From a virus, in the IMG/VR virus record IMGVR_UViG_3300021957_000015, positions 15,170 to 79,169 of that record: 64,000 nucleotides of DNA. One strand, written 5' to 3'. The translations under genes and the position numbers were made by a program. Of the stretch, positions 38,290 through 51,347 are shown in pieces. The notes below the pieces were generated by a model. It had not been told where the DNA came from, searched no databases, and was given only the letters and a program-made list of their open reading frames with translations. Each line of letters begins with the position of its first letter. The stretch's first letter is position 1.

Positions 38290-38658
38290 ATGAAAACATT
38301 TAATAAATACTTAGTAGAGGAAAAGATTACTGAAAACGACATGGAAGTTCTTAAAGAAAACTTACAGTCTGAGTGGACTCCTGAATTAGAATCTAAAATA
38401 GATGCAGCAATAGAGGAATTTTGTAAAACTTACCAAAACGAAGATGGTACATATGACTTAGACAAGTTAAATGAAGAAATAACTAACGAAGGTCTTCTAG
38501 GTTCTATTATAGGTGGTTTAACTGGATTTGCTCTAGGAAAATCAGTTGGTAAATTATTAGCTAGAGTATTAGGTATTCAAAAGGGTATATTATTTGATTT
38601 ATTAACCTCAAGACTTGTAGGTGCTGCATTAGGTGCTAGTCTTGGTAAAAGATTCTAA
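38290..38658 (+). CDS. Small protein: acidic N-terminal half plus cationic glycine-zipper C-terminal half
   Basis: Starts MKTFNKYLVEE; after ITNE comes GLLGSIIGGLTGFALGKSVG...LVGAALGASLGKRF. Confidence 0.7.
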   Translation: MKTFNKYLVEEKITENDMEVLKENLQSEWTPELESKIDAAIEEFCKTYQNEDGTYDLDKLNEEITNEGLLGSIIGGLTGFALGKSVGKLLARVLGIQKGILFDLLTSRLVGAALGASLGKRF

Positions 38659-43910: not shown

Positions 43911-45740
43911 ATGGATAAATTAAAAAACTTCGAGCAATTTGCTAAGGTAAAAACCGAACGTGATGCCGCTCAATTAAAAGAAGAGCAAGATTCTAAAAGA
44001 TCAGCAGAAGCTAATACCTTCAAATCTCTTTTATCAGAATTCAATGTCACTTCTATTAAAGAATTATCAGAAGATCAAAAATCTGAATTTTTTACTAAAC
44101 TAAGAGGTGTTGAGGTTTCTGAATCCTTTTTAATTATAGAAGGAACTAGAGGACAGTTTGGTAAAATAGACAAAAAAGGTAACATAGAATCAGTGTATAC
44201 ACATTACGACTCATATCCTGATAACATGCTACCACTTATCAAGAAAACATATTTAAAAGGTGGTTCACCTCTAAATATGGTTCTTAAAAATGGAGATAAT
44301 TCAGGTTTAGAAGCTGATCCAAGAGGAATGAACTACTACGGAGACTCCGATAATATGAAAGGTAACGTTAAAAACATTGACAGATACATTTCAACAGCAG
44401 GCGATAAAGGTGGTGCAGAATTCATTTACCTTTTTGATGAAAAATCAGGAAAGTGGTTAATGGCAGACATATATGCAGGTGATAAAGATTTAAAACCAGC
44501 ATTTGAATCTGTAGAAATTAATGAAGCTATTAAAGTAGAAGGTAAGAGAGATGCTAAGAAAGTAGTAACTCAGTATAATCAAATTTTGTTTTCTAAATTA
44601 AATGCAATCGGTGCATCTAACGATAAGAAGACTTTATTGGGTGCAATTAAAAAATTATTCTTAGATTCAATGGAAGATGCTAATTTCCATAGAGAAAGAG
44701 AAAAGTGTGCAGGCGCTATCAAAGGTAATATAGGATCTATTCCAGTAATAGTTGATGGTTTAGGCAAAATGTCAGTAAACATTGGATCAACAAGAATTAA
44801 AGATGCGTTAGAAAAAGAATATTCTAGAATTTCAAATGCAGCTGGATGGTCAGGTCAAGGTATTGCAGAAGGAACTGCATTATTCTTAGAGCAGTGTGGC
44901 TTTGCTAAAATGGGACAAGATTTACTAGATAGGTTTAACTCTTTCTTTGAAGGTGAAGTAAAAGACAACTTTGAATTTAGAATGTTTGAAACTATTAAAT
45001 ATGCAGAAAGTGTATTAGAAGCTACTGTAGTTATGGATGCAACAGATCCTGGATCTAAAGTATTAAAAAAATTACTTAAGAAACACAAAGTTACAATGGA
45101 GATCATCGATAACGAAGGTCCAACAGGTTTCCCAGAAGTTGAATTAACGGGTTCAAGAGAAGATCTACAATCAGTGTTAGGCTCTGACGATGGTTGGGGT
45201 GATCCTGAATTAGGGGAATACATTGAAGAATCTAACGAAACCTTTAAGATTAAAGTTAAAGCTTTAAATGAAGCTAAATTTGTAAAAGATTTTAATAAAG
45301 ATGTTTTAGGTGCTGAAACTAAAGAAGATATAAAATCTTATTATCCATCAGCTAAATTCTTTATTGGTAAATTGACACACTTCTTTGGAGAACTAGAACC
45401 TAACCTATTCTTTAAAGCTTACTATGCTAGATACTACAAAGAAGATACGGGCAAGAAAATTAAAGGTGACTTTAAAATTACTTCAATCTACTCTGAAAAG
45501 GGTAGTAATTATGTTCACTTACACAATGAATCTGCTAAAACAGTAGAAGCTCCAAAAGTAAACGAAGCAGAAGTTACTTCAGACGAAGAATTTAAAGAGT
45601 ATGCATTTTCAGTATTAAAGAAAGCATTCGGAGATGAATTTGACGAAGATAAGGCAGGTGAAGTTGTAGACGGATTAATTTCTAAAAACTCAGGAGATTA
45701 CGGTGCTATGGTTGGTGCCTTAAAATCATCACTAGGGTAA
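43911..45740 (+). CDS. Modular putative internal-head polyprotein
   Basis: Starts MDKLKNFEQF; domains separated by IIE/INE/VLE/LNE/VNE; YTHYDSYP module; one module shared with 48952-50775. Confidence 0.6.
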   Translation: MDKLKNFEQFAKVKTERDAAQLKEEQDSKRSAEANTFKSLLSEFNVTSIKELSEDQKSEFFTKLRGVEVSESFLIIEGTRGQFGKIDKKGNIESVYTHYDSYPDNMLPLIKKTYLKGGSPLNMVLKNGDNSGLEADPRGMNYYGDSDNMKGNVKNIDRYISTAGDKGGAEFIYLFDEKSGKWLMADIYAGDKDLKPAFESVEINEAIKVEGKRDAKKVVTQYNQILFSKLNAIGASNDKKTLLGAIKKLFLDSMEDANFHREREKCAGAIKGNIGSIPVIVDGLGKMSVNIGSTRIKDALEKEYSRISNAAGWSGQGIAEGTALFLEQCGFAKMGQDLLDRFNSFFEGEVKDNFEFRMFETIKYAESVLEATVVMDATDPGSKVLKKLLKKHKVTMEIIDNEGPTGFPEVELTGSREDLQSVLGSDDGWGDPELGEYIEESNETFKIKVKALNEAKFVKDFNKDVLGAETKEDIKSYYPSAKFFIGKLTHFFGELEPNLFFKAYYARYYKEDTGKKIKGDFKITSIYSEKGSNYVHLHNESAKTVEAPKVNEAEVTSDEEFKEYAFSVLKKAFGDEFDEDKAGEVVDGLISKNSGDYGAMVGALKSSLG

Positions 45741-45751
45741 AAACAATATAT

Positions 45752-45782
45752 AAACTAGAGAGCATAACACTCTCTAGTTTTT
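45752..45782 (+). terminator. Hairpin, probable intrinsic terminator or attenuator
   Basis: AAACTAGAGAG-cataaca-CTCTCTAGTTT (11 bp) followed by T residues. Confidence 0.55.
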
Positions 45783-45795
45783 ACTTTCAACTACT

Positions 45796-47067
45796 ATGAA
45801 AATATATACAGACTTTAGTACATTTATAACTGAAAGGGTTCATTTACAAGAATCTAATTTAATATTAGAAGGTGGAGCAGCCGGCCACATGTCACACCCG
45901 TTTGATAACAAGTCATTGACATTCGGCGATTTTAAAAAGCTTATAGAATCTGGATTAAGTGGAGAACTTAATTTTGAAGAAGATCCTACTGAAAAAACAG
46001 ATGGCCAAAATTTATTTGCAACTGTTAAAGATGGAGAAACAATGTTTGCCAGAAATAAGGGTCAAATGAAAAATCCAATAGACCTAAACGGTATTATTAA
46101 GATGTTTACTGGTCACGCTTCTAAATTAGTAGAAGAAACATATATTTTTGCAGCAAAAGATTTAGCTGACGCTTTACCAAAACTTAAGGATCAATCAATG
46201 TTTGCAAACGGATTAAATTTCGTTAACATGGAATTGATCTACTCTAAAAATCCCAACGTGATATATTATGATAGAGATGTTATTCAATTTCACAATATAA
46301 CAGAAACAGACGGAGAAGGTAATCAAACAGGAACTCAAAATTTAGCAACAGAATTAGTAGGTGCTTTAAAAGAATTAAAGAAAGATGTTCAAAACACATT
46401 TACTATAATTCCACCACAAGTATTAAAGATTGCTAAAGACGTTGACTTTGAAGCAAACAAGTCAAAATTCATTAAACAAGTAGAAGCATTAAAGAATCGT
46501 TATAAATTAACAGATGCTGACGAAGTTTCCAGATATCATGAAATGTGGTGGAGAGAAACGATAGACACAAATTTCCCTGATCTAGAACAAAACCATAAAG
46601 AAGGTTTATTATTAAGATGGGCATATGGCGATAAGAAAACTTTAAACTTAAGATCATTAGACAAAGCTATCGGTAAAGACAAAGCTGCACTAATTAAGAA
46701 GTTTGATAAAGAAGATGTTAAAAAGAAGTATAAAGAAAACATTAGACCATTTGAAGATCTATTCTTAGAATTAGGATCAGTAATCTTGAAAAACGCAAGT
46801 AACTTTGTAGCTGCATCGCCAGATAAAGAAATGCAAAGACTACATAATCAAATTAGAACTGAAGCTGCTAAGATTAAAAAATCAGGTGGAATTGATCAGA
46901 TTAAAAAAGTTGAAGCTGAACTTGCTAGACTAGAAAGAATCGGTGGAATAGAGTCTATTATACCAACTGAAGGTTTAGTTTTTAAATATAAGGGACATAC
47001 TTATAAACTAACTGGAACTTTTGCTGCAATTAATCAATTAATGGGAATTATTAAATACGGTAGATAA
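45796..47067 (+). CDS. RNA-ligase-like covalent nucleotidyltransferase (DUF6267-like)
   Basis: Motif I TEKTDGQN, motif IV EGLVF, motif V YKLTG; N-terminal MKIYTDFSTFITE...LILEGGAAGHMSHPFD. Confidence 0.6.
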   Translation: MKIYTDFSTFITERVHLQESNLILEGGAAGHMSHPFDNKSLTFGDFKKLIESGLSGELNFEEDPTEKTDGQNLFATVKDGETMFARNKGQMKNPIDLNGIIKMFTGHASKLVEETYIFAAKDLADALPKLKDQSMFANGLNFVNMELIYSKNPNVIYYDRDVIQFHNITETDGEGNQTGTQNLATELVGALKELKKDVQNTFTIIPPQVLKIAKDVDFEANKSKFIKQVEALKNRYKLTDADEVSRYHEMWWRETIDTNFPDLEQNHKEGLLLRWAYGDKKTLNLRSLDKAIGKDKAALIKKFDKEDVKKKYKENIRPFEDLFLELGSVILKNASNFVAASPDKEMQRLHNQIRTEAAKIKKSGGIDQIKKVEAELARLERIGGIESIIPTEGLVFKYKGHTYKLTGTFAAINQLMGIIKYGR

Positions 47068-47069
47068 CA

Positions 47070-48914
47070 ATGGCATTACAGAACTTAAAAACATATTTTG
47101 AATCAACTAATATCAATGACTTTAAAAAGTTACTAGATAATATTTGCGTCGTAACCGAAAAGGTACAAGCTTCAAGTTTTCATGTTAGAAGAGATGAGAT
47201 TGACGTTTTTGAATTTTTTAAAAGCGGTTCAAAAACACCTATTAATAAAGTAGACAGAACGTTAGTAAAATATTATGAAAACGGAATTAAACACTTTAAC
47301 ACAATATCAGATGTTATTCTAAATGAAATGCCAAAGGATTGGAAATTCGGGTTTGATTACATGTTAGAAACCAAAACTGTAGATATAGAATATGACAATG
47401 TTCCTAAAAACAATCTTATATTAACACATATACAGGTTTTAAATCCTTCAGATCCCTCTAAAGTAAAAAAAGTAATTAGAGATCCTAGAATTTTAGAAAA
47501 ATGGGCTGGTTTATTAGATGTACAGCCAATATCTGTACTTTTTCAAGGTCAATTGGCATCTAATCAGAAAGATGACTTAATATCATTATTATCACTGGGC
47601 ACTGAAGAATTTAAAAAGAAATTTAAAAACCAATCTTTTACAAGAACTATTTATCACATATTCGATAACGGTAGAAATAAGTCAGCATTAAACTTGGATT
47701 TAGATAAAGACATTGATGCGCTAGTTATTAATTTTTATGAAGATAGGACACCTAAAAGTTTTAAGCTAGAAAGATTCGATAGAGAATCTGCACCAAATAG
47801 AAAATCATCAGACATGTATCAAATATCGATACTAGATTTAGTTGAATTCTTAACTTCATTTGATTTATCAGATATAAAATTAAAAGAAGAAAAGGCGGAT
47901 TTAAGATATGTAGAACTAATTTCATCTATATTTAATGCGTATGTTGAAAAGCATGCTACAAAATATGTAGGCGCTGATTTTGATTCAGCTGATTTTGCAG
48001 AAGGAGAATCATTTGAACTTAATACAGCATTTATGTCAAATGAAAAAACAATATCACTTGTACAAAATAAAGTACTAGCTGAATTGTTCAAAATAGCATT
48101 AGGATCTTTTAGAAAAAAGAGAACTAAAGAAACAGATATCATTAACGCAGATTTATTATCTCAAATTAATGAAATAGTTGAAGAAATAGATACTATTGTA
48201 ATGGGTAAAACAAATGAAAAAGATGTAATGGATTTTAAAAAATATCTAATTAATCAAAAACTAAATGGAGATGTAAGTCCAATAATGGAAGGATTAACTG
48301 TAAATTATCCAGATCAAGGTAAAAAGCCAGTCAATATGTTTGTCGGTAGATTTCAACCGTTCACATTAGGACATGCTAAAGTAATAGACACTATCAGCAA
48401 ACAAAATGGACACCCTGTTGTTGTAATATTGATTAAATCAAAGACTAAGAAAAAAGAAGATGCGTTTAAAAGACCATACGACGAGGAAACTCAATTAGCA
48501 ATGCTTAATAAATTAAAGTCTAAATACCCAATAGAAAAAGTATACATTTTAGATAGAGCTGCAATAGATTACATGTTTAACGCAATGCGAGCAGATGGTT
48601 ACGAACCAGTGCTTTGGGGAACAGGAACAGATAGACTTAAAACATATTCGTATCAAGTTGATAAACCAGAATATAGAGAATCTTTAAATTGTAGAGAAGA
48701 TTTCGGTTTATTTGAAATCCCTAGATCTGGTAAAAACATTTCAGCAACACAGGTTAGAAATGCAATGTTAGACGGTGATGAAAAAACATTTAAAAAATTA
48801 ACACCTAGACCAATTCATGGTATGTATACTGAATTGAGAACAAAATTAGAGGTTTCTATGGGTGTCGCAGAGTCAAAATTCATGACATTTGAACAGTTTG
48901 TGAAGAAAGACTAA
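47070..48914 (+). CDS. Degenerate ligase-like domain fused to HxGH-type (cytidyltransferase/NMNAT-like) nucleotidyltransferase
   Basis: N-terminal VTEKVQASSF; C-terminal domain VGRFQPFTLGH...GTDR...ISATQVR; ends FMTFEQFVKKD. Confidence 0.7.
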   Translation: MALQNLKTYFESTNINDFKKLLDNICVVTEKVQASSFHVRRDEIDVFEFFKSGSKTPINKVDRTLVKYYENGIKHFNTISDVILNEMPKDWKFGFDYMLETKTVDIEYDNVPKNNLILTHIQVLNPSDPSKVKKVIRDPRILEKWAGLLDVQPISVLFQGQLASNQKDDLISLLSLGTEEFKKKFKNQSFTRTIYHIFDNGRNKSALNLDLDKDIDALVINFYEDRTPKSFKLERFDRESAPNRKSSDMYQISILDLVEFLTSFDLSDIKLKEEKADLRYVELISSIFNAYVEKHATKYVGADFDSADFAEGESFELNTAFMSNEKTISLVQNKVLAELFKIALGSFRKKRTKETDIINADLLSQINEIVEEIDTIVMGKTNEKDVMDFKKYLINQKLNGDVSPIMEGLTVNYPDQGKKPVNMFVGRFQPFTLGHAKVIDTISKQNGHPVVVILIKSKTKKKEDAFKRPYDEETQLAMLNKLKSKYPIEKVYILDRAAIDYMFNAMRADGYEPVLWGTGTDRLKTYSYQVDKPEYRESLNCREDFGLFEIPRSGKNISATQVRNAMLDGDEKTFKKLTPRPIHGMYTELRTKLEVSMGVAESKFMTFEQFVKKD

Positions 48915-48951: not shown

Positions 48952-50775
48952 ATGAAAAAATTCGAAGAATTTATCGGTGAAGGTAAAATCACTTTAAAGA
49001 GAAGATATACTGAAAACCACCCTGCAGTTACCGCAGGAACACACGCAAAAATTAGAAATAAAGTATTAGAAGCTATCGCTGATGGAACTTTAACTCAAGA
49101 AGAATTCGATAATATTCTAAAAGAGATGTCAAGCAATTCTGGTAGATGGATGAGAAGAAACGCAAAATACTTTAATGTGGCAGAATCTGGAATATCTCTT
49201 TCTAAATTTGGAAGAAAGATACTTAACACTATCAGTATATCTGAAGCAGAGATTGAAGAAGGTAATGCTTTCGGTGATGCTGTAAGAAAAGCCAAAGAAA
49301 ACGGAGACAAAGAATTCGAATTTGATGGTAAAACCTACCCAGTAAAAGAAGGTAGAGGATTTGTTGCGGCTGCTAAAAAAGCAAAAGACGCAGGTGAAAA
49401 AGAATTCGAATTTAATGGTAAAACATTTCCAGTTTTAATCAAAGAAGACGAAGAAGTTGAAGAATCAGTAGTTACTGAAGACTCACTTTCAGGTATAGAA
49501 TTTGGAAACGATGATGACATACACCCAACTGAATTTAAACCATTAGTTAAATCTTTAAAGAAGAACAAAGTTAAAATGGAAGTTGAAAAAGAAGAAGGAT
49601 CACATGGATATCCTGAAGTTAAATTAACCGGTAAAAGAAAAGATATCGAAAATGTTTTGGCTGATGTATGGGGTCCAGACTCAGTTTCTGATTATGAAGA
49701 TTACTTTGAATCAGTAGTTACTGAATCGACAGAAGATACTGAATCGACAGAAGATACTAAATCTAATCATATACACGAATCTTTTTCAAGTTTCGTAGAA
49801 AGCTTAAATGAAGCTTTTGGTTCAATGAAGCTTTCTAAGTTATTTACAAACACTAGGGGTAAAGTTGATAAAGCATTATCAGGTGCATTTTATGGTAAAA
49901 CTAAAGTTGCTTTAGATAAAGTACAGGATGAAGATCTTATTGATACTGATCCAATGACAGCGTACAAGGCAAAACAAACAAATACTATTGTTTTTTACAT
50001 CTCAGATAATGAGAAACCTAATCCATATGCACCGAGCGATGCATACAGTTCTGATAAAGTTATTCCAGGTGGAAGTTACTTATTAGCTGTAGCAAGTGGA
50101 GGTAATGAATTTTACACAAACACATGGACTAGCAGATATTCTAGTAGAGACAGAGACAGAACTCTAAAAACTACTCCTAATAATTCAAGTGATACTATTG
50201 GTATTTCTAAGAAGTACAAAGGATGGGATGCAACTGGTCTTTACAATGTAAAAAGAATTGCAGAAGTTGCAGATAGAGCAGTTGTTATCAATATAGATCT
50301 ATTACAACAAAAATATTCTACAGCTAATAAAAGATCTGAAAGATCAAGCGCTAAAGCTGGTGCGATTGCATTTAAATCTGATAAAGACTTTAAACAAGAA
50401 AACAAAAACAGATATACTCAAATCTTAGCTACTAAAGCAGCTGCATTGCCATTAGATAAAATGGTTTCAGCGGCAATCGATGAATTAGCTAAACAAATTC
50501 AAGATGGTTTGAAAGCTGGAGAGAAAACAGAATACGGAGAAATCTACATTGGTAAAAACAAAAGAGGTTCTACTGTAAAATTAAAAGATGCTTCTTCACA
50601 CATGTCATCCATCTTAGACGATTACTCAAGATACTGTGATTATATCGCAAGATCTGAAGAGTCTGAAAAGAGATACGGTACAGGTGAAAGATGGTACGAA
50701 AGAGAAGCTAAGACATACGCTAAATCTATTAAAGATAGAATTAACAAAATCAAAACTTTCGATTACGCTTGGTAA
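48952..50775 (+). CDS. Modular putative internal-head polyprotein
   Basis: Starts MKKFEEFIGE; two tandem AK..G.KEFEF.GKT.PV units; ESVVTE-flanked module; internal HESFSSFVESLNE. Confidence 0.6.
   Translation: MKKFEEFIGEGKITLKRRYTENHPAVTAGTHAKIRNKVLEAIADGTLTQEEFDNILKEMSSNSGRWMRRNAKYFNVAESGISLSKFGRKILNTISISEAEIEEGNAFGDAVRKAKENGDKEFEFDGKTYPVKEGRGFVAAAKKAKDAGEKEFEFNGKTFPVLIKEDEEVEESVVTEDSLSGIEFGNDDDIHPTEFKPLVKSLKKNKVKMEVEKEEGSHGYPEVKLTGKRKDIENVLADVWGPDSVSDYEDYFESVVTESTEDTESTEDTKSNHIHESFSSFVESLNEAFGSMKLSKLFTNTRGKVDKALSGAFYGKTKVALDKVQDEDLIDTDPMTAYKAKQTNTIVFYISDNEKPNPYAPSDAYSSDKVIPGGSYLLAVASGGNEFYTNTWTSRYSSRDRDRTLKTTPNNSSDTIGISKKYKGWDATGLYNVKRIAEVADRAVVINIDLLQQKYSTANKRSERSSAKAGAIAFKSDKDFKQENKNRYTQILATKAAALPLDKMVSAAIDELAKQIQDGLKAGEKTEYGEIYIGKNKRGSTVKLKDASSHMSSILDDYSRYCDYIARSEESEKRYGTGERWYEREAKTYAKSIKDRINKIKTFDYAW
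49462..49725 (+). repeat. 18-bp perfect direct repeats flanking a protein module
   Basis: GAATCAGTAGTTACTGAA at 49462-49479 and 49708-49725, both encoding ESVVTE. Confidence 0.9.
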
Positions 50776-50807: not shown

Positions 50808-51347
50808 ATGAAACATTTACAATTATTTGAAGAATTTCTAAACGAAAAGGCATATAGAATGACAGGTATCTATGCAGCTAAGGGTTTAATAGGTGCTATT
50901 ATGCAGGCCTTTAAACAAGAAATCAAAAAAGTAAAATACGAAGGTATTAATGTAGTAACTCAAGAAGAAGTTAATAAAGAATGGGCTAAATTTGAAGATA
51001 CTGCTAAGAAAATGATTTTAGATCAAGTAGAAAAAGGAGCAGGTGGTATGGAAGGTGTTCTATATGTTACTGCTAATCTTTTTAATGGATTCGCTATAGA
51101 TGAGGTTAATGGTTTAAATTCTGAAGGATCAGATACGTTATACCTTGGTTATGAAGTTGTAATTAATGTAGGTTTCATGGACGATTTTAATGGCAAAAAG
51201 GTTTATAAGAAAATCGATAAGACCGGAATGATGAATTCCCCGCTAGCAAGTAAGAGAGATGTTATTTACGGTGAATACGATTCTGCAGTCGGTAACAACA
51301 ATCTAGAAATTAGAGATTCTGAATACATTCAGATTGACGGAAAATAA
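50808..51347 (+). CDS. Hypothetical protein with capsid-targeting-like N-terminus
   Basis: Starts MKHLQLFEEFLNE. Confidence 0.65.
   Translation: MKHLQLFEEFLNEKAYRMTGIYAAKGLIGAIMQAFKQEIKKVKYEGINVVTQEEVNKEWAKFEDTAKKMILDQVEKGAGGMEGVLYVTANLFNGFAIDEVNGLNSEGSDTLYLGYEVVINVGFMDDFNGKKVYKKIDKTGMMNSPLASKRDVIYGEYDSAVGNNNLEIRDSEYIQIDGK

What the first reader, a model, noticed from the sequence alone, without database searches (positions are those of the whole stretch)
45796..48914. Adjacent RNA-ligase-like enzyme and ligase-like/HxGH nucleotidyltransferase fusion, both with targeting-like motifs
Seen: gene 1 has covalent nucleotidyltransferase motifs (EKTDG, EGLVF, YKLTG). Gene 2 starts 2 nt later and has a degenerate copy (EKVQAS, DALVI, FKL) joined through a PIME-G site to a (T/H)xGH Rossmann nucleotidyltransferase (GRFQPFTLGH, ISATQVR) resembling NMNAT/PPAT. 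Known: phages use RNA ligases to repair tRNAs cut by anticodon nucleases, and NMNAT-type enzymes to rebuild NAD+ depleted by defence systems. Inference: this is an injected, immediately acting repair or counter-defence module, or an RNA/protein adenylylation or capping system. The substrate cannot be read from sequence.
Basis: partly seen in the sequence, partly recalled or inferred. Interest (0 to 1): 0.75.

Follow-up and report, generated by a model that had tools for sequence, protein, structure and literature searches.

The report
Phage RNA-ligase-like pair with NMNAT-like domain
Two adjacent genes of an uncultured marine T4-like phage encode two very divergent RNA-ligase-fold proteins, the second fused to an NMNAT-like nucleotidyltransferase; the three modules stay together or fused in many uncultured phages and are probably an RNA-break repair and nucleotide-resynthesis kit, perhaps carried in the phage head, but no activity has been measured.

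Summary
Gene 1 (45796-47067, 423 aa) and gene 2 (47070-48914, 614 aa) are real, 2 nt apart, and adjacent in all 80 related viral contigs fetched.

- **Gene 1 ("LigA").** No Pfam, PHROG, NCBIfam or PDB sequence match. A confident model (pLDDT 90.6) hits only ATP-dependent ligases, RNA ligases best (Z 9.7). The motif I lysine K67 and motifs III, IV and V are invariant.
- **Gene 2, residues 1-243 ("LigB").** T4 Rnl2-like fold (Foldseek E 6.6e-8, Z 11.3). Motifs I and IV are altered, and the lysine is replaced by Asp or Asn in distant homologues, so it is probably non-canonical or inactive.
- **Gene 2, residues 418-600.** A genuine HIGH (TxGH) nucleotidyltransferase, closest to NadM-type NMNAT.
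- **Linkage.** 107 of 150 LigA-family representatives carry a GRFxP-type HIGH-NTase motif in the same chain. A few carry P-loop kinase or CCA-adding domains instead or as well.
- **Targeting.** Gene 1 has a T4-like capsid-targeting leader. Gene 2 has none at its N-terminus, only an Ile-x-Glu junction and a conserved C-terminal tail.
- **Virions.** A distant NTase homologue with such a leader was found in purified cyanophage S-SCSM1 virions.

Substrate and packaging are inferred. The scan noted this pair before on other DNA.

The parts
45752..45780 (+). Terminator-like hairpin with a T-run between the upstream polyprotein gene and gene 1
   Evidence: Consensus scan: 11-pair stem and 7-nt loop followed by TTTTT. 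The sequence was read. Function not tested.
45796..47067 (+). Gene 1 (LigA), 423 aa: divergent ATP-dependent RNA-ligase-fold enzyme
   Evidence: ORF. AlphaFold pLDDT 90.6. Top Foldseek hits are T4 Rnl1, Trl1 and Rnl3. VIA Z 9.7 to Naegleria RNA ligase (183 aa aligned, rmsd 3.7) and Z 8.3-8.7 to REL1, Rnl1, Trl1 and Rnl2. 1865 clusters in the metagenome library at E <= 0.001.
45796..45870 (+). Gene 1 leader, residues 1-25: MKIYTDFSTFITE..LILE, resembling the T4 capsid-targeting sequence, with three L/I-x-E sites ending at residues 13, 19 and 25
   Evidence: Sequence. Low model confidence (residues 1-4 and 14-30 under pLDDT 50; 10-residue blocks average 50, 42 and 40). The T4 CTS MKTYQEFIAE and the gp21 L/I-x-E rule come from PMC8442874 and PMC9026906. 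Leaders are enriched in the family. However, the LLxE-GG element just before the domain is itself conserved, with C or M at -1 in 26 of 139.
45991..46005 (+). Gene 1 motif I, EKTDG (residues 66-70), with the presumed AMP-accepting Lys67
   Evidence: E66 K67 D69 G70 are invariant in 47 sequences.
46447..46938 (+). Gene 1 helical insertion, residues 218-381, between motifs IIIa and IV. Known RNA ligases have no such insertion here.
   Evidence: Secondary structure of the model. Only about 183 residues align to ligase NTase domains, although the aligned range spans 28-416.
46969..47016 (+). Gene 1 motifs IV and V (EGLVFK...YKLTG, residues 392-407)
   Evidence: P390 E392 G393 K404 T406 G407 are invariant. 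Strands 393-398 and 401-405 in the model.
47070..48914 (+). Gene 2, 614 aa: Rnl2-like ligase-fold domain fused to a HIGH nucleotidyltransferase
   Evidence: ORF. Orthologues follow gene 1 in the same order in all 80 IMG/VR loci fetched and in LR756500.1.
47070..47798 (+). LigB nucleotidyltransferase-fold domain (residues 1-243) with a variant motif I, EKVQAS
   Evidence: AlphaFold pLDDT 86.4. Foldseek T4 Rnl2 E 6.6e-8. VIA Z 11.3, 193 aa aligned, model 1-241 against Rnl2 6-234. Column counts. K31 is replaced by N or D in LR756500, LR756501 and LR756502.
47799..48257 (+). LigB helical C-terminal region (residues 244-396)
   Evidence: Helices 248-396 in the model. Few structural matches reach beyond residue 243.
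48258..48299 (+). Disordered linker holding the conserved SP-I-x-E|G/A junction (PIME|G, residues 404-408)
   Evidence: pLDDT under 50 for residues 397-410. P404, E407 and L409 are at least 90% conserved. The Glu aligns with the last residue of the leader MKYLKLFETFINE|A of the stand-alone NTase in L040.
48321..48869 (+). HIGH (TxGH) Rossmann nucleotidyltransferase domain, NadM/NMNAT-like (residues 418-600), with GRFQPFTLGH and ISATQVR
   Evidence: PF01467 E 7e-9. phrog_395 and phrog_3041 'cytidyltransferase'. TIGR00125 passes its cut-off; the NMNAT models fall far below theirs. Best PDB match is 2qjo, NadM-Nudix, E 4e-5.
48870..48911 (+). Conserved C-terminal tail ..AESKFMTFEQFVKKD, which resembles the leader motif
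   Evidence: T606, F607 and F610 are invariant, while the preceding residues vary and carry indels. The same tail ends the stand-alone LigB of L040.

Best explanation
The locus encodes three functionally linked modules of a T4-like marine myovirus.

1. **LigA (gene 1).** An active-looking, ATP-type RNA-ligase-fold enzyme. Lys67 would be adenylylated, and the AMP passed to a 5'-phosphate end before sealing.
2. **LigB (gene 2, N-terminal part).** An Rnl2-like ligase-fold domain with altered motifs I and IV. It is probably not a canonical self-adenylylating ligase. More likely it acts as a nucleic-acid-end binding or scaffolding module.
3. **HIGH nucleotidyltransferase (gene 2, C-terminal part).** It is closest to NadM-type NMN adenylyltransferases. 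It would make an A-pp-X product from ATP, most plausibly NAD+ from NMN.

Together they most likely form a healing-and-sealing kit for broken RNA, tRNA above all, joined to nucleotide or NAD+ resynthesis. Such a kit would counter host abortive-infection nucleases and NADases.

They are probably loaded into the prohead through gene 1's capsid-targeting-like leader, trimmed by a gp21-type protease at L/I-x-E sites (including the gene 2 domain junction), and injected with the DNA.

**Shown here:** the folds, the motif conservation, the NTase family, the conserved adjacency and fusion of the modules, and the presence of leader-like motifs.

**Inferred:** the substrate (RNA rather than DNA), NMNAT activity, LigB inactivity, packaging and cleavage.
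For: **Folds**
- LigA matches only ligases, RNA ligases best.
- LigB matches T4 Rnl2.

**Catalytic motifs of LigA**
- They are invariant over 47 sequences.
- Spacing: motif I (K67) to Ia (R86) 19 residues, motif III (E146) to IIIa (F165) 19. The matching figure of about 20 for T4 Rnl2 is recalled from memory, not checked here.

**NTase**
- PF01467, TIGR00125, PHROG cytidyltransferase families and PDB 2qjo NadM.

**Linkage of the modules**
- The gene order is kept in 80 of 80 loci.
- 107 of 150 LigA-family representatives carry a GRFxP HIGH-NTase motif in the same chain.
- Microcystis phage Mel-JY01 has an NTase-LigA fusion.
- L040 has the three modules as separate adjacent genes.

**Pointers to RNA**
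- LigA is fused to a complete CCA-adding enzyme plus HD domain in P0218. It is fused to Zeta/AAA_33 P-loop kinases in P0175 and P0207.
- Relatives carry a separate canonical DNA ligase, so this pair is not the replicative ligase.

**Pointers to NAD+**
- Relative G001 encodes NadV.
- The gene 2 orthologue is the only PF01467 hit in each of five partial genomes.

**Pointers to packaging**
- Gene 1 begins MKIYTDF..ITE; the T4 CTS is MKTYQEFIAE, with the targeting residues 4 and 7 and the I-x-E site matching.
- A CTS-like leader occurs in 56 of 121 family members against 33 of 525 background ORFs.
- A gp21-type protease is present in 5 of 5 related records.
- S-SCSM1 ORF91 is NMNAT-like and matches the gene 2 NTase profile (hhalign 96.6%, E 6.8e-10). 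It has the leader MKSFLQFLKE|A and was detected by mass spectrometry in purified virions (PMC9602691).
Against: - No activity is known for any member.
- The structural Z scores (9.7 and 11.3) are moderate. DNA ligases also match (Z 5-8.6), so a DNA substrate is not excluded.
- NMNAT-specific NCBIfam models score far below their cut-offs (about 30 bits against 127-409).
- Gene 2 has no N-terminal leader.
- The LLxE-GG element before the LigA domain is conserved even in leaderless fusions, and has Cys or Met in place of Glu in 26 of 139 proteins. It may therefore be part of the fold rather than a cleavage site.
- The genes lie beside replication genes (gp32, primase, UvsW), not head genes. No late promoter was found, and TATAAATA is not enriched.
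- The own record is a 29%-complete fragment with no protease gene in it.
- The virion-detected homologue shares only about 25-27% identity and lacks the ligase domains.
Confidence: 0.5

Rival explanations
1. NAD+ reconstitution is the real function of the NTase. It would be the phage's NMNAT, working with NadV as in the NARP2 pathway. The ligase-fold modules would be unrelated anti-defence cargo joined to it only for co-delivery, following 'polyvalent protein' logic. There would be no shared substrate.
For: - The best matches are NadM-type NMNATs.
- The GRFQPF..GH and SxTxxR signatures are present.
- NadV and a Nudix gene occur in relative G001, and no other PF01467 gene was found.
- NMNAT-like proteins recur in cyanophage virion proteomes.
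- Polyvalent phage proteins mix disparate domains (PMC5512222).
Against: - 71% of LigA-family representatives carry this one NTase type, which is tighter than a random assortment.
- NadV was found in only 1 of 5 partial relatives.
- Scores fall below all curated NMNAT cut-offs.
Confidence: 0.25
2. This is a DNA nick or break sealing kit. LigA would seal breaks in the incoming or replicating phage DNA, possibly together with polymerase-X-like enzymes that sit beside it in other phages. LigB would bind the nick.
For: - ASFV, Chlorella virus, T4 and human DNA ligases are also structural matches (Z 5-8.6).
- Rnl2- and Rnl5-type enzymes are nick sealers.
- Earlier notes of this scan report PolX-like neighbours of ligase-NTase fusions in other phages. 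I did not test this.
Against: - There is no OB domain.
- RNA ligases rank above DNA ligases for both models.
- Relatives already encode a canonical DNA ligase.
- LigA is fused to a CCA-adding enzyme and to kinases.
Confidence: 0.15
3. The proteins are ordinary cytoplasmic phage enzymes that are not packaged. The N-terminal 'leaders' would be family-typical amphipathic helices, and the Glu sites coincidental.
For: - The genes lie next to replication genes.
- L/I-x-E is a short motif, found in 33% of background ORFs.
- LLxE-GG is conserved as part of the domain.
- 17 family members start directly with the NTase and have no leader.
- No virion data exist for LigA or LigB.
Against: - The CTS-like pattern is about sevenfold enriched.
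- The leader of gene 1 matches the T4 CTS at the functionally mapped positions.
- A homologous NTase with such a leader is in S-SCSM1 virions.
- The junction Glu aligns with the end of a stand-alone leader.
Confidence: 0.35
4. Gene 1 is an RNA-capping or protein/RNA adenylylation enzyme rather than a ligase.
For: Capping enzymes share the covalent nucleotidyltransferase fold. Human mRNA guanylyltransferase appears at Foldseek rank 47.
Against: - All strong matches are ligases.
- There is no OB domain.
- The motifs are of the ligase type.
Confidence: 0.05

Closest known systems
T4 RNA ligase 2 (Rnl2; PDB 2hvq, 1s68) and the Rnl2/REL1 family
   Same: The gene 2 N-terminal domain superposes on the Rnl2 nucleotidyltransferase domain (Z 11.3, 193 aa aligned, model 1-241 against chain 6-234). 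The EK motif I lies near the N-terminus, as in Rnl2. By my reading, the spacing from motif I to motif III (65 residues) is close to that of Rnl2; the Rnl2 residue numbers are from memory.
   Different: - No sequence-level match to PF09414 or to PDB.
- Motif I is K-V-Q-A instead of K-x-(D/H)-G, and motif IV is D-A instead of E-G.
- The lysine is lost in distant homologues.
- It is fused to a HIGH NTase.
Naegleria gruberi RNA ligase (Rnl5; PDB 5cot, 6vt3), T4 Rnl1 (2c5u) and fungal Trl1 ligase domain (6n0v)
   Same: These are the best structural matches of gene 1 (Z 9.7, 8.7 and 8.5; about 172-192 residues aligned). Gene 1 has a canonical KxDG motif I and motifs III, IV and V, and no OB domain.
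   Different: - A helical insertion of about 165 residues lies between motifs IIIa and IV.
- A conserved GGAxGHMxHPFDD element lies upstream of motif I.
- No sequence similarity is detectable.
- In relatives it is usually the C-terminal domain of 500-1900-aa proteins.
NadM-type NMN adenylyltransferases (Synechocystis NadM-Nudix 2qjo; M. jannaschii MJ0541 1f9a) and the phage NARP2 pathway (Nampt + NMNAT)
   Same: GRFQPF-x-x-GH and I-S-x-T-x-x-R signatures are present. 2qjo is the best PDB match (E 4e-5). A relative encodes NadV.
   Different: - The first His of HxGH is Thr.
- There is no Nudix domain.
- Scores fall far below the curated NMNAT cut-offs.
- It is fused to a ligase-fold domain instead.
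T4 internal proteins IPI-III and Alt: capsid-targeting sequence plus gp21 processing (PMC9026906)
   Same: The gene 1 N-terminus MKIYTDF..ITE resembles MKTYQEFIAE, with Tyr4, Phe7 and an I-x-E site. Relatives encode a Peptidase_S77 prohead protease.
   Different: Packaging and cleavage are untested. The cargo would be large enzymes. Gene 2 has only an internal junction and a C-terminal tail.
Virion-detected NMNAT-like protein ORF91 of Synechococcus phage S-SCSM1 (QFG06348.1; PMC9602691) and the cyanophage 'cytidyltransferase' genes (phrog_395, phrog_3041)
   Same: The NTase domain is homologous (hhalign 96.6%, E 6.8e-10). ORF91 has the CTS-like leader MKSFLQFLKE|A.
   Different: Identity is about 25-27%. 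No ligase-fold domain was detected by sequence in ORF91 or its neighbours, nor in S-SM1 gene 191.
Polyvalent proteins of phages and conjugative elements (Iyer et al. 2017, PMC5512222)
   Same: These are long multi-domain phage proteins that combine unrelated enzymatic domains and are thought to be delivered with the DNA.
   Different: The passages I retrieved from that paper do not mention the LigA, LigB or HIGH-NTase combination. I searched four terms and did not read the whole paper.

Membership tests
ATP-dependent polynucleotide ligase / covalent nucleotidyltransferase superfamily (gene 1) | Nucleotidyltransferase-domain fold | tested here: met
   Model pLDDT 90.6. All 50 top VIA rows are ligases; best Z 9.7, rmsd 3.7, 183 aa aligned. 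The first 37 Foldseek ranks are all ligases, best E 8.6e-4.
ATP-dependent polynucleotide ligase / covalent nucleotidyltransferase superfamily (gene 1) | Motif I KxDG lysine and motifs III, IV (EG) and V (K) | tested here: met
   E66 K67 D69 G70, E146, E392 G393 and K404 are invariant in 47 sequences. That K67 superposes on the catalytic Lys could not be checked residue by residue.
ATP-dependent polynucleotide ligase / covalent nucleotidyltransferase superfamily (gene 1) | Self-adenylylation and strand joining | not testable with these tools
   Needs a biochemical assay.
Rnl2-type RNA ligase, PF09414 (gene 2, residues 1-243) | Fold of the Rnl2 adenylyltransferase domain | tested here: met
   Foldseek 2hvr E 6.6e-8. 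VIA 2hvq Z 11.3, rmsd 4.1, 193 aa aligned.
Rnl2-type RNA ligase, PF09414 (gene 2, residues 1-243) | Match to the family HMM | tested here: not met
   No PF09414 hit at E <= 10 or in the genome search. No PDB hit with the family profile. Only a language-model lead.
Rnl2-type RNA ligase, PF09414 (gene 2, residues 1-243) | Conserved catalytic lysine and canonical motifs I and IV | tested here: not met
   K31 is invariant in the close clade (26 of 26), but position 33 is Q (18) or D (5) and position 34 is A (20) or G (6). Motif IV is D/S + G/S/A. K31 is N or D in LR756500, LR756501 and LR756502.
HIGH (HxGH) nucleotidyltransferase superfamily, PF01467 (gene 2, residues 418-600) | HMM above cut-off, (H/T)xGH and SxTxxR motifs | tested here: met
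   PF01467 36.4 bits against a cut-off of 21. TIGR00125 39.9 against 27.7. GRFQPFTLGH and ISATQVR are conserved.
NMN adenylyltransferase (NadM/archaeal type) | Score above the curated equivalog or subfamily cut-offs | tested here: not met
   NF002243 30.2 bits against 127; TIGR01527 29.5 against 181; NF003791 30 against 409.
NMN adenylyltransferase (NadM/archaeal type) | NMN + ATP -> NAD+ activity | not testable with these tools
   Context only: NadV in relative G001.
T4-type capsid-targeted internal proteins | N-terminal CTS of about 10 residues with key residues 4 and 7, and an L/I-x-E processing site | tested here: inconclusive
   Gene 1 fits the pattern: Y4, F7 and I11-T12-E13 (rule from PMC9026906). 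Gene 2 has no such N-terminus. A pattern match is not proof.
T4-type capsid-targeted internal proteins | A gp21-type prohead protease in the phage | tested here: inconclusive
   Absent from the own 79-kb fragment, which is 29% complete. Present in 5 of 5 related records.
T4-type capsid-targeted internal proteins | Presence in purified virions in processed form | not testable with these tools
   Only a distant NTase homologue, S-SCSM1 ORF91, has published virion detection.

The most novel reading that the evidence does not exclude
The near-obligate fusion of a HIGH (NMNAT-like) nucleotidyltransferase to the LigA ligase fold reflects a shared chemistry rather than co-delivery. There are two versions. 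In the first, the NTase makes NAD+ in place for a ligase that takes its AMP from NAD+, which would be the first NAD+-dependent RNA ligase. In the second, the NTase directly adenylylates a 5'-phosphate RNA end (A-pp-RNA, the analogue of A-pp-NMN). The lysine-less or altered LigB domain then performs only the sealing step, giving a ligation pathway split over three modules.
Probability: 0.1. Interest if true: 0.85.

Novelty: new variant of a known kind. Interest (0 to 1): 0.6.

Why it matters
The gene 1 fold family is very large: 1865 clusters at 50% identity in metagenomes, and more than 600 stretches in IMG/VR. It has no Pfam, PHROG or NCBIfam model. I found it in only one cultured phage, where it is annotated merely as 'cytidylyltransferase like'.

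If the proposed function holds, many uncultured marine phages would carry a ready-made RNA-repair and NAD/nucleotide kit against abortive-infection defences, possibly inside the capsid. The family would also add two new branches to the RNA-ligase superfamily. One has an unusual helical insertion, and the other has lost its canonical chemistry.

The idea is directly testable with recombinant proteins, and with virion proteomics of Microcystis phage Mel-JY01.

Tried and rejected
- **Complex prediction.** Gene 2 (1-600) with gene 1 (26-423) gave 'no answer' (score 0.00). This is evidence neither way.
- **DUF6267 lead.** The language-model lead for gene 1 was not borne out. No member of alignment A1 hits it, and no paper mentions it (an earlier try, timed out).
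- **Gene 1 against gene 2.** BLASTP and hhalign show no sequence similarity. The two ligase folds are not recent duplicates.
- **LigB in the LigA-family proteins.** LigB was not found inside any of the 150 LigA-family representatives.
- **PADLOC.** No hits.
- **Burroughs and Aravind 2016 (RNA repair systems).** The paper is not held, so I cannot say whether it mentions a ligase-HIGH NTase link.
- **Mel-JY01.** No paper found.
- **Promoters.** TATAAATA (6 found, 17 expected) and GAAAC-N-TATAA give no promoter for the pair. The sigma-70 scan was below chance.
Neither LigA nor LigB has a Campylobacter-phage hit. Only the NTase domain has weak ones (E about 6e-4 to 8e-4). Virion detection there was not checked.
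- **Cyanophage neighbours.** S-SCSM1 ORF90 and ORF92 and S-SM1 gene 191 show no LigA or LigB similarity by profile. The BFVD fold hit of gene 1 to the 591-aa S-PM2 'cytidyltransferase' (E 4.5e-4) remains an unverified lead.

Full report
**What is there.** The window is a low-GC (about 32%) stretch in which nearly every long ORF, and all the credible genes, lie on the + strand. It comes from a 79-kb IMG/VR virus record judged 29% complete. PHROG scans identify a baseplate wedge protein, tail fibres, a gp32-type SSB, a primase, a UvsW-type helicase and ribonucleotide reductase. This is an uncultured T4-like myovirus. Close relatives are common in marine metagenomes, on contigs of up to about 250 kb.

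Gene 1 is 45796-47067 (423 aa) and gene 2 is 47070-48914 (614 aa), with 2 nt between them. A terminator-like hairpin (45752-45780) separates gene 1 from the upstream 609-aa gene.

**Gene 1 (LigA).** No Pfam, PHROG, NCBIfam, PADLOC or PDB sequence match exists.

An exhaustive HMMER search found 1865 clusters at E <= 0.001. In nearly all of them the match begins at about residue 18 of gene 1 and lies at the very C-terminus of proteins of 500-1900 aa.

In a 47-sequence alignment, E66 K67 D69 G70 (motif I), R86, E146, F165/H166, E392 G393 (motif IV) and K404 T406 G407 (motif V) are invariant or nearly so.

The AlphaFold model is confident (pLDDT 90.6, pTM 0.85), with residues 1-30 disordered. Foldseek against the PDB puts T4 Rnl1 first (E 8.6e-4), and the first 37 ranks are all ligases. 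VIA-align gives:

| Match | Z |
|---|---|
| Naegleria RNA ligase (183 aa aligned, rmsd 3.7) | 9.7 |
| REL1 | 8.7 |
| T4 Rnl1 | 8.7 |
| Trl1 | 8.5 |
| Rnl2 | 8.3 |
| DNA ligases | 5-7.5 |

The Z values are moderate. However, the list is uniformly ligases, and the order and spacing of the motifs fit.

Two features set the family apart. One is a helical insertion of about 165 residues (218-381) between motifs IIIa and IV. The other is a conserved element, (L/I)(L/I)x(E/C/M)-GG-A-x-GH-(M/L)-x-HPFDD, about 30 residues before motif I. It is present in 139 of 150 representatives.

**Gene 2, N-terminal part (LigB).** This part also has no sequence-level family, only a language-model lead to PF09414.

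The model (pLDDT 86.4) matches T4 Rnl2 clearly. Foldseek gives E 6.6e-8. VIA gives Z 11.3 with 193 aa aligned, model 1-241 against chain 6-234. A helical region follows (244-396), and then a disordered linker.

Within the close clade (26 sequences), E30 and K31 are invariant. The rest of motif I is not canonical, however. It reads K-(I/V)-(Q18/D5)-(A20/G6) instead of KxDG. The motif IV 'EG' is (D/S)(G/S/A). Motif III is FGF(D/E)Y, and the motif V lysines are mostly kept.

In the more distant homologues of the huge phages, the motif I lysine itself is replaced. LR756500 has E-N-L-D-G, and LR756501 and LR756502 have E-D-(I/V)-Q-G. A ligase fold that can lose its nucleophile across the family is unlikely to work as a canonical self-adenylylating ligase.

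I read LigB as a non-canonical, perhaps non-catalytic, end-binding module.

Gene 1 and LigB show no detectable sequence similarity to each other.

**Gene 2, C-terminal part.** Residues 418-600 are a genuine HIGH-superfamily nucleotidyltransferase:
- PF01467 E 7e-9, above its cut-off.
- TIGR00125 above its cut-off.
- phrog_395 and phrog_3041 'cytidyltransferase', and phrog_3462 NMNAT.
- Best PDB match the NadM-Nudix NMNAT 2qjo (E 4e-5).

GRFQPF(T/H)xGH, a G-x-D-R motif and (I/P)S(A/G)TxxR are conserved. All NMNAT-specific NCBIfam models score about 30 bits against cut-offs of 127-409. It is therefore NMNAT-like, but not a demonstrated NMNAT.

**The three modules belong together.**
- The order UvsW, variable polyprotein, LigA, LigB-NTase is kept in all 80 IMG/VR loci fetched. 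The pair is also adjacent, in the same order, in the 462-kb phage LR756500.
- 107 of the 150 LigA-family representatives carry a GRFxP HIGH-NTase motif in the same polypeptide, usually at the N-terminus. Pfam confirms PF01467 in those tested.
- The only cultured carrier found, Microcystis phage Mel-JY01, has an NTase-LigA fusion annotated 'cytidylyltransferase like protein'.
- In L040 the modules are separate neighbouring genes, in the order LigA, NTase, an unknown 294-aa protein, LigB.

This shuffling of the same three modules between fused and split forms is a Rosetta-stone argument for a common function. A direct complex prediction gave no verdict and counts neither way.

**What they probably act on.**
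- Some LigA-family proteins also carry a full CCA-adding enzyme with an HD domain (P0218), or Zeta-toxin/AAA_33 P-loop kinases (P0175, P0207). Kinase plus ligase is the classic 'healing and sealing' pair, and a CCA-adding enzyme points to tRNA.
- Both models resemble RNA ligases more than DNA ligases, and neither has an OB domain.
- Relatives G001 and G004 have a separate canonical DNA ligase.

RNA, and especially tRNA, break repair is therefore my preferred reading. DNA nick sealing is not excluded.

For the NTase, relative G001 encodes NadV and a Nudix protein. The gene 2 orthologue is the only PF01467 match in each of the five partial genomes searched, the window's own record and four relatives. 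This fits a role as the NMNAT of a NadV-NMNAT salvage route against NAD+-depleting defences. That role is described for phages in PMC9503650 and PMC7824862. These genomes are only 29-61% complete, so this evidence is weak.

**Targeting.** The T4 capsid-targeting sequence is MKTYQEFIAE. Residues 4 and 7 drive targeting and residues 8 and 10 drive processing. The gp21 protease cuts after L/I-x-E (PMC9026906).

Gene 1 begins MKIYTDFSTFITE, with Tyr4, Phe7 and I-T-E13. Further sites end at residues 19 and 25.

Similar leaders occur elsewhere:
- On neighbouring ORFs: 38290 MKTFNKYLVE, 48952 MKKFEEFIGE and 50808 ..LFEEFLNE.
- On the stand-alone modules of L040.
- On 56 of 121 LigA-family proteins, against 33 of 525 background ORFs. 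The pattern was chosen after seeing the data, and the background contains some tagged genes.

All five related records searched encode a Peptidase_S77 (gp21-type) protease.

Gene 2 differs. Its N-terminus is part of the fold and has no such site. The disordered domain junction SP-I-M-E|G is conserved, and its Glu aligns with the last residue of the leader of the stand-alone NTase. The protein ends in a conserved ..MTFEQFVKKD tail that resembles the leader motif. The same tail ends the stand-alone LigB.

One caution applies. The LLxE that precedes GG in LigA is conserved even in leaderless fusions, and its Glu is Cys or Met in 26 of 139 proteins. It may be structural rather than a cleavage site.

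**Published virion evidence.** The NMNAT-like protein ORF91 of Synechococcus phage S-SCSM1 was detected by mass spectrometry in CsCl-purified virions. The authors note that NMNAT-like proteins recur in cyanophage virion proteomes (PMC9602691; also S-CREM2 ORF154, PMC10665884).

ORF91 is a distant homologue of the gene 2 NTase (tblastn E 1e-4; hhalign 96.6%, E 6.8e-10). It lies among genes annotated as virion proteins and begins MKSFLQFLKE|A.

This is the best independent support for packaging. It concerns a relative at about 25-27% identity that has no ligase domains.

**Verdict.**
- The folds and the NTase family are well supported (about 0.9).
- Functional coupling of the three modules is likely (about 0.75).
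- RNA repair (about 0.45), NMNAT activity (about 0.4) and capsid delivery (about 0.5) are inferences.

The scan had already noted the same pair on other DNA. Follow-up agents reached similar readings for related fusions. Those are not independent evidence.

I rate the finding a new variant of a known kind. It consists of unrecognised, highly divergent branches of the RNA-ligase superfamily, in a characteristic fusion with an NMNAT-like enzyme, on a T4-type internal-protein chassis.

Noticed in passing
window 38290-38658, 43911-45740, 48952-50775, 50808-51347: Several neighbouring ORFs start with T4-CTS-like leaders: MKTFNKYLVE|E, MDKLKNFEQF.., MKKFEEFIGE|G and MKHLQLFEEFLNE|K. The 609-aa and 607-aa proteins that flank the pair share a phrog_5922-like module (residues 391-426 and 205-248) and vary greatly between related phages.
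   Followed up: partly
L002, L003, L071 against the window: Mosaicism. Gene 1 is 100% identical in three IMG/VR contigs. In the same contigs the adjacent LigB part of gene 2 is only 82-85% identical and the upstream polyprotein 73-78%. The NTase part is 99% identical in L002 and L003; L071 ends before it. This suggests recent recombination with breakpoints inside the pair.
   Followed up: no
L040:3104-3988: In the phage where the three modules are separate genes, an extra 294-aa ORF sits between the NTase and LigB. It has the CTS-like leader MMKHIKLFEQFLFE|S and no Pfam match.
   Followed up: partly
P0218, P0175, P0207: LigA-family proteins of 1000-1500 aa also carry a complete CCA-adding enzyme with an HD domain, or Zeta-toxin/AAA_33 kinases. 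Proteins of up to 1909 aa (P0223) have more than 1000 residues with no family assignment between the NTase and LigA.
   Followed up: partly
L082-L086 (relatives G001-G005): The gp21-type prohead protease domain of the related phages lies in open frames of 618-688 aa, far longer than the 198-position Pfam model. The protease may be fused to another protein, perhaps a scaffold.
   Followed up: no
G001:C1:134398-135177 and G001:C1:158109-158471: A related phage record encodes a NadV-type nicotinamide phosphoribosyltransferase (frame of 527 aa) and a small Nudix protein. These are elements of an NAD+ salvage route.
   Followed up: partly
L171 (Synechococcus phage S-SM1, 148256-150842): Two adjacent cyanophage genes are both annotated 'cytidyltransferase' (T4-GC 190 and 1454). 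Only the first holds the HIGH NTase. The second (473 aa) shows no similarity to LigA or LigB profiles, so its annotation looks unsupported.
   Followed up: partly
window 45752-45780: A strong terminator-like hairpin lies 16 nt before the gene 1 start codon, with no recognisable promoter or Shine-Dalgarno sequence between them. How gene 1 is transcribed and translated is unclear.
   Followed up: partly
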